Source: Schizosaccharomyces osmophilus
Lineage: Eukaryota
Assembly (NCBI RefSeq): GCF_027921745.1
Contig: NC_079240.1
Span: 1,922,001-1,986,000 of the forward strand
Length of the DNA stretch: 64,000 nucleotides
Reading direction: 5' to 3'
Shown one piece after another: positions 54,602 through 58,887 of this stretch. A program made the translations under genes and the position numbers. Every line of letters starts with the position of its first letter. Within the stretch, counting starts at the first letter, position 1. Below the pieces are notes generated by a model. That model did no database searches. It was given only the letters and a program-made list of their open reading frames with translations, and was not told the DNA's origin.

Positions 54602-54720
54602 AGCCTACAGCATCCCGGATTCCCATGTTGTCTCCAACCATAGTACTAACGAGACCCTCAGACGCTTAACTGCAGTGATCGGACGGGAACTGGTGTTTTC
54701 GCCTAGGTATGGCCGTAGAC
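54602..54720 (-). rRNA. 5S rRNA gene (copy 1)
   Basis: 119-nt GTCTACGGCCATACCTAGGCGAAAACACCAGTTCCCGTCCGATC...GCTGTAGGCT followed by a T-run terminator. Confidence 0.98.
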
Positions 54721-55408
54721 ATTTGTTATGGTCTTTAAAGACAATTTATTAAAGTAATGATCCAGTCTTTTTGGCTTGATGAACTACAAGATCCAATTCA
54801 ACTCAGTTCTATCTGGTATTTTTGACGGCTAAATGGTGAATGCTTTCGAATCATAAGAATAATATTTGAAAACACACTGTTTTCTCTTTTTTATTGATTC
54901 ACATAATGGTCGCAGGAGCATCAATTGAGTGTATGAGTTTATGGGTTGAAAATGTTACTCAATATAAATTGGGTACTACTTGAATCAAGGTCCGTCGACT
55001 TGACTCCCAAAGTAAACGGTAATTCAATGTTTTAAACTATATCAATCGATTCTTCCAATCTGAAGATTTATACTTTCTATGCTGTGAACGAATTTTACCT
55101 CTGGCGGTAATCACTTTCGTTCTTACAATTAATGAAAGACACGACACAGTGTTGAGTAAAAAACTAGTTAATTACGATGGTATTTTCCTCAGAATAATTA
55201 AATAATCATTAAAAAGGGTGTCTATTCATGCAGAAAATGAACGATGCCGTGAAACGAATAAGAAGATTCATGAAAGAGAAATGAGAAAAGCAATCAAAGT
55301 CTGCTGGTTTCAGCTGATCCAAGCTTTTGTGGAAACGAACACAGGAACTTGGTAGACTGCAATTGACAAGATGCGAAATATAAAGAACGAAAGCAGGTTC
55401 GGTAAAAC

Positions 55409-56474
55409 TCAAACATCAGCCCTTTGCTCAGCAAGAGGCTGAAGTTCGATTTCTTCGTTACGAGGTGGACCATTCCTGCTAATTCTGTTCTGACAGGTTA
55501 TTAAGAGATCCTAGATTAAGAATAATAAATGTACTTACTACACGTGTCATATCTTGAATATCTTCAATCACATCTGGGTTTCCTAGAGAAGTTAGAAAGG
55601 TTGATAGAAAATAGCACCTTACGAATGAGAAGAACAAACAAGCATATGTTCAGTACAGCTAAAACCATTAACACCGCAGCTGAATGTATAAATTCAAAGC
55701 TTCCTGATAATTTTAAAGCACCACCCCCAACTCCATTGAAAATAATGAGTGTAATTAGGTCTTTACACACAGCTGGCGCTCCTCCACCTTTCTTAATGTA
55801 CTTCTTTGTTGCTCTTCCAGCTTGCGTGAACAATCCCAGATAGAGCATATGCGTTGCTAATAGTTAGTAAATTGCTCAAAGTGAAAGACATTGTTGTTAA
55901 CTTACCAAATAAAAACAACCCTAACACTACAAAAAAGCTGCCAAAAAGCCACCAAAAGGCTTGTGCATTCACAGAAACCTTCAAACCGAAAAATAACACA
56001 GGTAAAACAGCATAGGCCGCAATGTAGGCAAAAGATGTAGAAAACAACAAGTACATTATTATCTGCCACTTATCCATCGAACTCGACCTAGTATTATTAA
56101 CAGTATCTTGGGCGGAATTTTGAGCGGATCCATCAGCCATTTCTAAATCAATAAATTTGCTTGAAGCTAATGGATGTATTAGTAAATAGTTCGTTGTTTG
56201 TGAAAAGATAAAGGTGTCTATTATGTTTGCTGACAGTTATCGACAAGGTTATTGATTTCAAACCCAACAATCAAATAAACAAGCATGATTCTTCCATCAA
56301 GAACCGTTCAAAAAGCACGCAAAGAATTAACCTCTCTATTTTAATTCAACAAATCTTACCTGTATACGGAGGAGGCGTACCATCTGAAGGAGACGACCGA
56401 CTATCTGCCTTTTCATCATTGAGCGTTTTGGAAGAGTCATCAGAATCTGAAATAGGAGAGTACTTGTTTTTCAT
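55409..56474 (-). CDS. wtf: wtf-family meiotic-drive (poison/antidote) membrane protein, 5 exons: 56474-56360, 56166-55906, 55856-55623, 55582-55539, 55489-55409 (244 aa)
   Basis: Exon 1 MKNKYSPISDSDD..TPPPYT carries a PPxY motif. Intron 1 is long (193 nt), and exon 2 has IDLEM with an in-frame ATG at 56140. Several TM segments follow, and the C-terminus is EEIELQPLAEQRADV. All introns are GT-AG, and the exons total 735 nt with no internal stop. Adjacent to 5S rDNA. Confidence 0.85.
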
Positions 56475-56834
56475 ATTTACAATCGCAATTAGATCCCTTT
56501 AATAATACCGATTTTTACACTCTAAACGAAATCAACTTTTGAATCGCCGAGAAAAGTCCGTAGGAACTGGTTCCGCTCTTCACAATTCTGTCAGAAAAAG
56601 GAATTGGACCTTGCTTAAAAAGCAAGCTAATCTTGCAACACGAGTGTTCCCTTAAAACCAAAGATACGAGTTTGAAAAACCTTGGTAATGGCTTTTCGCA
56701 TGTCTCAATTCATAAAAGCAGCGACATTATGTCACTGACTGGTCACAGTCCTCGTTACGATTATTCAACGTTGGTTTTTCATTGCGATTTTTCGTAATAG
56801 TATAATATAAAAGAGTCGTCATTTATTACAAAAA

Positions 56835-56843
56835 GTAAACAAA
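56835..56843 (+). promoter_or_regulatory. FLEX-like forkhead (Mei4) site GTAAACAAA in the wtf/wag divergent promoter
   Basis: Exact GTAAACAAA. Further forkhead-like words occur at 57230-57240 (AAACAAACAAA) and 57266-57272 (GTAAATA). Confidence 0.6.
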
Positions 56844-57569
56844 GGAAACATTTGGCAAAACAACCATGCTGTTTGCTTAAATTATAAATAGCAGGATTAG
56901 AAATGCAAATCTTTGTATTGGAAGGTTCCGTGACTTTGGCTTAACAGGTTTCACAGTTTTCATTTCGTTAATTAGATCCTAAACTTGAGAATAATTGGTC
57001 CACTGGTATAAAAGCAGAATCCCAATTAAATGAAAATATGATTATTTACACAATCAGTCATCTAACAAGAAATTGAAAGGGAAAGGTTCGACGCTTGTTT
57101 TATAATGTTCCCAAGACCCATCAGAAGTGTCATACAATACTTGTGTAGCTGTAAATATGGAAAATCATAATGAACGACATTTATAGTGACTAGTACATCT
57201 TTATTTAATTTATTTTAATCACACGATAGAAACAAACAAAAGCGATTTCGGACAGGTCATTTATTGTAAATATATATAGAATAGCGTACGCTTACTAGCT
57301 ATCGGTATGTGTGTCAGAGAGGGTGGATGACAGCTTCACCTCTGCAAAATTCTAACCATTGCCATTGCGGGCTCATTTCTCGGCTTTTATAGGAACTTTT
57401 GTTAGCGTTTTACTTTTATTTGTAGCGCCAGTTGATCTGGGTGCTTTTTTTCGAAAATTGTAAGCGTTTTTGTCCTTTTACTACGTAATTCGATAATAAT
57501 CGCAGTATCTTTCTTACCATTGCAAAGGTGATTGAGTAACTCTTTAAGTCTCAGCTAGTTTTAACAAAA

Positions 57570-58440
57570 ATGAATGAAAAAGAAAGAGAAAGGCATCTAA
57601 AAACTGTCGAACCAGCCGAAGTTGCTTGTTTGAGCTCTTCTACAAGTCCTGACAGCTATTTACCGAAATACAGCGAAATCCCCTATTCTCATGTTGACAA
57701 TATGGAGAAAGGTTGTTTATGTTTACATTACGATCCAGTTCCTCCATACTCAGGAAGCAGACACCAAGAAGCGTCTACCAACATGGCAGGAGGAAATATA
57801 TGCTCTATTTCTTTACGAAAAGTCTTGACGGCATTATTGTGGTTAATTTTCTGGCCGGCAAAAATTGTGAGAATCCCCGAAGCACAACGCAGACAGGAAA
57901 ATGAAACTGCTCGGCTTAGTTTTTGCTTTATTCTTTCGGTCATAGTAAACTTTTGGTTTTCTTACAAATACCTTGTCCCCTTTATAAAGGAATCGATGAA
58001 AGAATCTGTAGGGGTAAACTTTCAAGCTACTGTAGCAGCTGTTCTTGTCGTCATGGCTTTCTACATGTTTCTATATGTTTGTTCATGTAAGTGAAATGGT
58101 GGAATTTTAATTTGATATGTTTACTAATGGGGTACTTATAGTGTTGCTGGATTTTATTGCTTTAGTGCTTTCTGGGATTGCTTGGATTGTTTCTTGGATT
58201 GTTTCTTGGATTATTGCTGCTCTTGGTTTCAGGATGTCGTCGGAAAGAAACGACTCGACGGATGGTAACTGGATCCCACTAAGCACTATGCCGGCAGAGT
58301 CTGAAAATCAATCCAACGATCGTAGTGATAATACTGCCGAACAACCGTCCTCTGAACATACCTCTGAACATACTGAGCAATCTCCAGGGTTACGCCAGGA
58401 ACCGGGTCAGTCTAGGGATGTTGAAAGCGGTGGGAAATGA
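57570..58440 (+). CDS. wtf-associated (wag-like) multi-TM protein, exons 57570-58086 and 58142-58440 (271 aa)
   Basis: A 55-nt intron (GTAAGT..TACTAAT..TAG) joins ORFs 57570 and 58117 in frame. The protein has LPKY and VPPY motifs, ~4 hydrophobic segments and an acidic polar tail. It lies head-to-head with wtf inside the 5S direct repeats. Confidence 0.72.
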
Positions 58441-58768
58441 TTTATACGGAAAGTAAAGCATTGTTTTTTATAATGTCCGGTCTTTTCGATTTTTCTCCAG
58501 CATGCTTTTGCTTATGTTTATGTTTCATCTTTGCATTTTGTATTTTATATTTATTCGTCAAGCACTTTTTAATTACTGATCCTTATAGAATCTTTTATTT
58601 TCTAACTAATAAGGAATTTAATTAAGTATTGAATCATGGATGACCATTGCTTCCTTGCAGTCACTCGTATCACTAAGTCAAACGTCTATGTCGATCAAGA
58701 CGAAAGTCATGTGCTTCAATAAAAAGAGCAACAGAAAAAGAAGCAAAAAGTAAAATAAAAAAGTGAAA

Positions 58769-58887
58769 AGCCTACAGCATCCCGGATTCCCATGTTGTCT
58801 CCAACCATAGTACTAACGAGACCCTCAGACGCTTAACTGCAGTGATCGGACGGGAACTGGTGTTTTCGCCTAGGTGTGGCCGTAGAC
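58769..58887 (-). rRNA. 5S rRNA gene (copy 2)
   Basis: Identical to copy 1 except for one substitution (58876 vs 54709); same orientation, offset 4,167 bp. Confidence 0.98.

What the first reader, a model, noticed from the sequence alone, without database searches (positions are those of the whole stretch)
54602..58887. 5S rDNA-bounded two-gene selfish cassette: 5S <- wtf <-> wag -> 5S, excisable as a 4,167-bp circle
Seen: two 119-nt 5S genes in direct orientation, 4,167 bp apart and differing by one base. They enclose exactly two head-to-head membrane-protein genes, both with intact spliced frames. Known: wtf genes are poison-antidote spore killers, and in S. octosporus/S. osmophilus they associate with dispersed 5S rDNA and uncharacterised wag genes. 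Inference: 5S-5S recombination could pop out or insert the unit as a circle, so it could move without a transposase, using the host's Pol III repeats as homology arms.
Basis: partly seen in the sequence, partly recalled or inferred. Interest (0 to 1): 0.85.

Follow-up and report, generated by a model that had tools for sequence, protein, structure and literature searches.

The report
Known wtf-wag unit between 5S genes
This is a real but already catalogued fission-yeast locus, where a spore-killer-family gene (wtf) and its uncharacterised partner (wag) sit between two 5S rRNA genes; it likely spread by recombination between such repeats, a model already in print, and its excision as a circle is untested.

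Summary
Two 119-nt 5S genes, 4,167 bp apart with one difference, enclose an intact 5-exon wtf (244 aa) and a divergent 2-exon wag (271 aa). Both proteins match annotated Schizosaccharomyces osmophilus proteins: wtf39 (SOMG_04923, wtf5 in another strain) and SOMG_04924 (wag4). Neither layout nor idea is new. De Carvalho et al. 2022 list this locus; 17 of their 42 S. osmophilus wtf genes have this layout. They proposed gene conversion or circle integration via 5S and used this locus in their test. Jia et al. 2023 report a presence/absence case of this layout (wtf31). This copy looks old and sedentary: both published strains carry it, S. octosporus has wtf genes at the same site, no near-identical copy was found, and wag is a patchwork of paralog segments. 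Circles could not be tested. Drive is unproven and probably weak: intron 1 has no consensus FLEX motif, and the closest S. octosporus relatives make almost no poison transcript. Side findings: all 27 aligned Wag proteins carry a PY motif, and a third multicopy membrane-protein family lies just downstream of wtf at 4 of 5 loci.

The parts
54602..54720 (-). 5S rRNA gene downstream of wtf (RNA position 12 = U, the Rfam consensus letter), followed by a T-run
55409..56474 (-). wtf gene (S. osmophilus wtf39 / SOMG_04923; wtf5 in the other published strain). Exons 56474-56360, 56166-55906, 55856-55623, 55582-55539, 55489-55409; 244-aa long (antidote-type) isoform with PPPY at residues 34-37; no exon-4 repeats
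56138..56140 (-). in-frame ATG (Met48) near the start of exon 2: predicted start of the 197-aa poison isoform, which lacks a PY motif
   Evidence: family rule
56167..56359 (-). intron 1 (193 nt), where a poison promoter would lie; no site within 1 mismatch of the 11-nt FLEX consensus, two sites with 2 mismatches (56224-56234 minus, 56275-56285 plus)
   Evidence: published FIMO result 'NO'
56475..57569 (.). 1,095-bp divergent intergenic region shared by wtf and wag; a 59-nt GC-AG-type skip at 56578-56636 in one run suggests an intron in the wtf leader
57570..58440 (+). wag gene (SOMG_04924; wag4). Exons 57570-58086 and 58142-58440; 271 aa, LPKY at residues 31-34, about three hydrophobic segments, disordered tails
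58769..58887 (-). 5S rRNA gene on the wag side (RNA position 12 = C), followed by a T-run
53568..54129 (+). outside the finding: 5'-truncated, frameshifted copy (SOMG_04922) of a third multicopy membrane-protein family, convergent on the 5S and wtf
52590..52662 (-). tRNA-Gly(GCC), between set5 and the repetitive stretch
51289..52242 (+). set5 (SET domain), left single-copy flank
62206..63729 (-). met1 (uroporphyrin methyltransferase), right single-copy flank

Best explanation
This is the catalogued S. osmophilus wtf39 (wtf5)-wag4 locus, one of 17 units of this layout, which likely reached this site long ago by recombination between dispersed 5S-linked repeats and has likely been reshaped since by piecemeal gene conversion rather than moved as a circle. 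Shown here: the two 5S arms, two intact reading frames, and spliced wtf transcript contigs. From the literature on the family, inferred for this gene: a long transcript gives an antidote whose PY motif recruits Rsp5/NEDD4-family ligases and routes the poison-antidote complex to the endosome and vacuole; a short transcript from intron 1 would give a PY-less poison from Met48 that kills spores lacking the gene. Inferred: this copy probably makes little poison and is a weak driver at best. Inferred: 5S-5S recombination can delete the unit; single-strand annealing would do so without a circle, and a crossover would release a 4,167-bp circle (general yeast knowledge, recalled). Inferred: Wag is a ubiquitin-sorted membrane passenger that is copied with wtf; no role in drive is shown.
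For: Identity: exon 2 and wag exon 1 hit P0002 and P0011 at 100%, and the spliced models equal them. The published rows match in size, strand and neighbours. Pfam WTF is hit at E=8e-4, below its cut-off. Layout: 17 of 42 rows have wag plus 5S on both sides (hand count). Age: syntenic in both strains and with S. octosporus wtf4-5-6. Conversion: the best match to successive wag segments changes (residues 1-60 SOMG_02119 97%; 111-172 SOMG_00343 100%; 231-271 SOMG_02330 98%); wtf exon 1 is 92-97% like the top six paralogs while exon 3 is at most 32% like any of 9; the wtf is only 36% and 34% identical to the two intact syntenic S. octosporus genes. wtf-wag co-duplication: 12 of 13 wtf genes over 50% identical are wag-linked against 21 of 67 others (Fisher p=5e-5, not corrected for relatedness), a clade the paper noted. 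Weak drive: no FLEX hit; the 11 wag-linked S. octosporus relatives have 14 short against 2,767 long reads (0.5%), while the three proven drivers have 5-10%.
Against: Direction is not fixed: the site could be ancestral with loss in S. cryophilus, as the authors allow. Conversion after arrival says nothing about how the unit first arrived, so circle integration is not excluded. The tandem wtf4-5-6 array in S. octosporus and the wtf31 polymorphism show crossover-type or deletion events do occur. A close relative, S. cryophilus wtf1 (55.5%), has a toxic poison when force-expressed in S. cerevisiae, and 14 S. octosporus genes make short transcripts without a confident FLEX hit. My paralog sets are incomplete (9 other Wtf, 26 other Wag proteins aligned), and only two strains are on record.
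Confidence: 0.75

Rival explanations
1. One reading: the unit is a currently mobile selfish cassette that pops out as a 4,167-bp circle and reinserts at other 5S genes.
For: Direct repeats with a 110-bp perfect arm. wtf31, same layout, is absent from one of two strains, attributed to 5S recombination. S. cryophilus has 5S but no wtf at 11 of 12 such S. osmophilus sites, this one among the 12.
Against: No near-identical copy found (best 62% wtf, 86% wag). Present in both strains and occupied in S. octosporus. The S. cryophilus set5-met1 midpoint distance is 13.0 kb against 11.2 kb here. Two paper searches on circles found only the paper that proposes them as relevant by title.
Confidence: 0.15
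2. The wtf here no longer drives at all: it is an antidote-only or neutral gene in practice, kept by conversion and low cost.
For: No FLEX hit. Poison transcripts are nearly absent in its S. octosporus relatives. The predicted poison of S. osmophilus wtf19 was not toxic.
Against: Met48 and the whole frame are intact. Two 2-mismatch FLEX-like sites lie in intron 1 (8 of 1,000 base shuffles reach two; a lenient control). Antidotes did not neutralise non-cognate poisons at 13-76% identity, so with a nearest paralog at 62% it has no evident target to suppress.
Confidence: 0.35
3. The 5S pair is not the only boundary: the site is a modular array (tRNA-Gly, family-X gene, 5S, wtf, wag, 5S) and some duplications carried or met the third gene beyond the downstream 5S.
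For: Family X (5 members) lies convergent and 1.2-1.7 kb downstream of a wtf at 4 of 5 loci: wtf39, wtf10, wtf11, wtf12. Two of the three other loci also have a wag on the far side. Laid contigs show paralog variants across 53426-54586.
Against: The fifth member sits beside gir2 (other neighbour not read), at a site listed as 5S without wtf in S. osmophilus, so X may be an independent 5S-associated repeat. Most wtf units have no X hit, though the search was limited to 79-254 aa. I could not read the DNA of the other loci.
Confidence: 0.3

Closest known systems
[quoted passage not shown] 2022, PMC9562144)
   Same: The same locus is listed (wtf5, 1,066 bp, wag4, 5S on both sides, predicted driver, no FLEX hit). 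Same orientation rules, same two recombination models, and it is one of the 12 loci in their S. cryophilus comparison.
   Different: Nothing in kind. This gene was not among those tested for poison, antidote or drive in the sections read.
S. osmophilus wtf31 presence/absence polymorphism (Jia et al. 2023, PMC10085805)
   Same: Same layout (wag18, 5S both sides); gain or loss attributed to recombination between the flanking 5S genes.
   Different: wtf31 is missing in one strain, whereas this unit is present in both.
S. pombe wtf poison-antidote drivers; PY-motif sorting (PMC10721834)
   Same: Five exons, internal start in exon 2, PY motif only in the long isoform, several hydrophobic segments.
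   Different: 11-16% identity in the 14 table cells shown; linked to 5S and wag instead of Tf LTRs; no consensus FLEX; no exon repeats.
[quoted passage not shown] 2019, PMC6538654)
   Same: 0.6-4.2 kb units between 5S genes that carry passenger genes (hsp16, membrane-protein remnants) and are homogenised.
   Different: Centromeric tandem arrays; this unit lies among ordinary genes and is a single copy at its site.

Membership tests
wtf gene family | sequence homology to Wtf proteins | tested here: met
   9 of 9 hits named wtf meiotic driver, one at 100%; Pfam WTF E=8e-4, under its cut-off
wtf gene family | five-exon structure with a long first intron | tested here: met
   introns 2 and 4 skipped in contigs, intron 3 by a loose end
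wtf gene family | [quoted passage not shown] | tested here: met
   Met48 at 56140
wtf gene family | PY motif confined to the long isoform's N-terminal tail; multi-pass membrane protein | tested here: met
   PPPY 34-37, none after Met48; three segments over the hydropathy threshold
active wtf meiotic driver (functional class) | consensus FLEX (Mei4) motif in intron 1 | tested here: not met
   0 sites within 1 mismatch, 2 with 2 mismatches; published FIMO 'NO'; none of 31 intact S. osmophilus genes has a confident hit
active wtf meiotic driver (functional class) | short transcript starting in intron 1 | not testable with these tools
   only assembled contigs were available; they cannot show starts
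active wtf meiotic driver (functional class) | toxic poison, cognate rescue, biased spore survival | not testable with these tools
   bench tests; not reported for this gene in the sections read
wag family | homology to wag proteins | tested here: met
   30 hits, all in S. osmophilus, S. octosporus or S. cryophilus, among them genes lying in published wag positions
wag family | divergent from wtf, between wtf and the upstream 5S | tested here: met
5S-mediated circle-mobilised cassette | direct 5S repeats on both sides | tested here: met
5S-mediated circle-mobilised cassette | circle junction in DNA | not testable with these tools
   no listed contig spans a 119-bp 5S copy; no raw or long reads were offered
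5S-mediated circle-mobilised cassette | empty single-5S allele at this site | tested here: inconclusive
   occupied in both published strains and in S. octosporus; S. cryophilus has 5S without wtf but a longer interval
5S-mediated circle-mobilised cassette | near-identical whole copies elsewhere (recent movement) | tested here: not met
   best wtf 62% of 80 tabulated non-pombe genes, best wag 86% of 26; protein level only
autonomous transposon | transposase or integrase gene and element-specific terminal repeats | tested here: not met
   only wtf and wag inside; no long repeat pair besides the 5S genes

The most novel reading that the evidence does not exclude
The dispersed 5S lattice of these yeasts carries not one but three families of PY-motif membrane proteins (Wtf, Wag, and the unnamed SOMG_01244/SOMG_04922 family), and Wag is itself a Wtf-like two-isoform element. 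Its LPxY and second PxY motifs are invariant in 27 of 27 aligned proteins, and a Met follows both, before the first membrane segment, in 25 of 27. A short PY-less isoform could be a second poison and the long one its antidote, or Wag could be a ubiquitin-ligase adaptor that tunes its neighbour's drive. Against: other Mets are just as conserved, no homology to Wtf is detectable, and no short transcript has been seen.
Probability: 0.1. Interest if true: 0.65.

Novelty: already known. Interest (0 to 1): 0.17.

Why it matters
As reported, it matters little: the locus, the layout and the circle model are in print. What stays open is whether 5S-bounded wtf units really form circles. This locus suits that test, because its exon 3 is unlike its paralogs and the one-base difference between its 5S copies predicts which allele ends up on the circle and which on the chromosome. 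The function of wag is also open. Its invariant PY motifs and the third neighbouring family give specialists concrete leads on how selfish genes use Pol III repeats to spread.

Tried and rejected
No whole genome was held, so paralogous loci could not be compared as DNA. Circle or empty-allele junction: contigs of 5 runs were laid (X1-X4; X2-X5). No exact junction was listed, but no listed piece spans a 5S copy and the tables were cut, so this is no evidence either way. Joints at 90% likeness, such as X3 58890 to 54758, carry letters unlike this locus and were read as paralogs. No RNA holder was listed. X3 and X4 behave like cDNA (intron skips, poly-T end) although labelled 'DNA?'; X1-X4 are one sample that may be the window's own source. 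Wag-Wtf, X-Wtf and X-Wag homology: hhalign probabilities 0.3, 1.4 and 3.3%; rejected, only PY/DLEKG-like motifs align. Pfam gave no match above cut-off for the window's Wag; the best E-value among 27 members was 0.003. The profile search of 1.84 billion representatives gave 9 hits; the 8 with names seen are from the same three species, and P0049 was not looked up. The AlphaFold2 model of Wag was poor (pLDDT 48.9, pTM 0.22), so no fold search was run; the Atlas gave no usable feature hit and structure rows at TM 0.33 or less. A forkhead-like site inside wag exon 1 was considered as an internal promoter and dropped: the core occurs 54 times in the window. The published wtf tree was cut when read, the genome FASTA supplement was held as 5,510 characters only, and Jia's Table S20 (inter-strain identity) was not found in the cut file; these could bear on clade and strain claims. 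PMC11892871 could not be read. The scan's earlier findings returned nothing.
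Full report
Observation. Rfam finds two complete 5S rRNA genes on the minus strand, at 54602-54720 and 58769-58887, 4,167 bp apart. They differ at one base, 54709 A against 58876 G. The longest perfect arm is 110 bp and each copy is followed by a T-run. Between them I modelled a minus-strand gene of five exons, 244 aa over 1,066 bp, and a plus-strand gene of two exons, 271 aa over 871 bp, head to head across 1,095 bp. Exon 2 of the first hits a 244-aa protein named 'wtf meiotic driver [Schizosaccharomyces osmophilus]' at 100%. 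Exon 1 of the second hits SOMG_04924, 271 aa, at 100%. Both database proteins equal my models. At 99% likeness, contigs of run X3 skip 55490-55538 and 55857-55905, and a loose end joins exon 4 to exon 3, whereas an X2 contig runs through introns 3 and 4. The wtf is therefore transcribed and spliced in at least one sample. That run is labelled 'DNA?' by guess and may come from the window's own source. The wag intron is bridged only by a paralog-like contig (10 of 11 letters). The description is accurate.

What it is. Jia et al. 2023 (PMC10085805; passages and Supplementary Tables S4, S10, S12 by search, file cut) annotate SOMG_04923 as wtf39, 1,066 bp, 'syntenic with wtf5 in CBS 15792', next to SOMG_04924 and between set5 and met1. 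De Carvalho et al. 2022 (PMC9562144; abstract, sections 6 part 1, 7, 9, 10, 11, 12, 16, 58 part 1, further passages, and parts 1, 2, 44, 45 and searched rows of Supplementary file 1) list wtf5 as 1,066 bp, reverse strand, with wag4 forward, 5S on both sides, predicted driver and no FLEX hit. By my hand count 17 of their 42 S. osmophilus rows have wag plus 5S on both sides. They named the wag family and described these units. Jia et al. found 41 of 42 wtf genes syntenic between two strains and attributed the one presence/absence case, wtf31, to recombination between its flanking 5S genes. wtf31 has the same layout.

Is this copy mobile? The evidence says old and sedentary. The site carries wtf4-wtf5-wtf6 in S. 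octosporus and is occupied in both published S. osmophilus strains. In the published identity table the nearest of 80 non-pombe wtf genes is 62% identical, and the two intact syntenic S. octosporus genes are 36% and 34%. The nearest of 26 other aligned Wag proteins is 86%. The best partner changes along Wag: SOMG_02119 for residues 1-60 (97%), SOMG_00343 for 111-172 (100%), SOMG_02330 for 231-271 (98%). In Wtf, exon 1 is 92-97% like the top six of 9 paralogs and exon 3 at most 32%. This is the pattern of piecemeal conversion the authors describe. In favour of a unit, 12 of 13 wtf genes above 50% identity are wag-linked against 21 of 67 below (related genes, so the p-value overstates it). One caution on the published empty site: set5-to-met1 midpoint distances are 11.2 kb here, 13.0 kb in S. 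cryophilus, 16.9 kb in S. octosporus and 2.5 kb in S. pombe. The S. cryophilus interval is not this one minus 4.2 kb. I could not test circles, because only assembled contigs were offered and no listed piece spans a 5S copy. From general yeast knowledge (recalled), single-strand annealing between direct repeats deletes the inside without a circle, so an empty allele alone does not prove circles. Two paper searches on circles in this system returned, by title, only the proposing paper as relevant.

How it likely works. The long isoform has one PPPY motif at 34-37. Met48 lies 26 nt into exon 2, and the isoform from it has no PY motif. In the family, PY motifs bind Rsp5/NEDD4 ligases, keep the antidote non-toxic and let it carry the poison to the endosome (PMC10721834, passages). 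That mechanism is inferred for this gene, not shown. Intron 1 has no site within one mismatch of the FLEX consensus and two with two mismatches. The 11 wag-linked S. octosporus relatives have 14 short against 2,767 long cDNA reads (0.5%), against 5-10% for the three proven drivers, and drive strength tracked poison level. Against weak drive, S. cryophilus wtf1 (55.5% identical) encodes a working poison and antidote when force-expressed, and FLEX is not required for short transcripts. I judge it a coding-competent wtf that is probably a weak driver.

Wag. [quoted passage not shown] There is no Pfam family, usable fold or Atlas lead and no profile similarity to Wtf. LPxY is invariant in 27 of 27 aligned proteins, as are the P and Y of a second PxY; a [LP]PxY arises in 7% of shuffles of this tail. 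Wag is thus likely a ubiquitin-sorted membrane protein. The word 'wag' does not occur in the PY-motif paper, and a search for wag returned only De Carvalho 2022 and a tdk preprint, whose passages still call the family uncharacterised and note wag genes beside tdk drivers.

Beyond the 5S. Left of the first 5S lies SOMG_04922, a 5'-truncated, frameshifted copy of a family with four more S. osmophilus members. Most longer members begin with PY and DLEKG motifs, and the longest has four hydrophobic segments. Four of the five lie convergent and 1.2-1.7 kb downstream of a wtf (wtf39, wtf10, wtf11, wtf12); the fifth lies beside gir2, at a site listed as 5S without wtf. I did not see this family described in the sections read, but made no dedicated search for it. 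It shows that the 5S pair is not the only module at such loci, much like the FSAR repeats at centromeres (PMC6538654, passages).

Verdict. The feature is real and correctly described, but already known down to the locus and the proposed mechanism. Circles and drive are unproven for this copy, and the comparative evidence favours an old resident shaped by conversion. Interest 0.17, with modest leads on Wag and the third family.

Noticed in passing
window 53568-54129 (+): Remnant of a third multicopy membrane-protein family (SOMG_04922; relatives SOMG_01244, 01160, 01016, 04384). Four of five members lie convergent and directly downstream of a wtf gene. This copy lacks the N-terminal part and is frameshifted near 53990; its last frame ends in NEEIELQ, as Wtf C-termini do, while the two paralogs with a full C-terminus do not.
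   Followed up: partly
window 57570-57800 (+): The Wag N-terminal tail carries an invariant LPxY and a second PxY (27 of 27 aligned), an EKG motif, and a Met at residue 72 in 25 of 27. A CLCLH/Q-type segment is present in 15 of 27 and deleted in most S. osmophilus copies.
   Followed up: partly
window 56578-56636 (-): A 59-nt skip with GC-AG ends in one run's contigs: a possible intron in the wtf 5' leader (may come from paralogs).
   Followed up: no
window 55623-55856 (-): wtf exon 3 is at most 32% identical to any of 9 S. osmophilus paralogs retrieved, and exon 4 lacks the 7-residue repeats; useful as a locus-specific marker.
   Followed up: partly
window 59583-59822 (+) and 60129-60455 (-): Two small hypothetical genes (SOMG_04925, hydrophobic, ortholog SPOG_02381 in the syntenic S. 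cryophilus interval; SOMG_04926) between the right 5S and two tRNA genes; one unbroken contig covers them.
   Followed up: no
window about 49580-50760 (+): A zinc-binding alcohol dehydrogenase-like gene broken over several frames (Pfam ADH_zinc_N on one piece): probably a pseudogene.
   Followed up: no
window 38074-38110 and 54926-54962: A 37-nt inverted match (84%) between the wtf-5S spacer and a site 17 kb away; not examined.
   Followed up: no
window 52590-61924: Five Pol III genes (tRNA-Gly, two 5S, tRNA-Pro, tRNA-Gly) lie within 9.4 kb between set5 and met1, whose midpoints are only 2.5 kb apart in S. pombe.
   Followed up: partly
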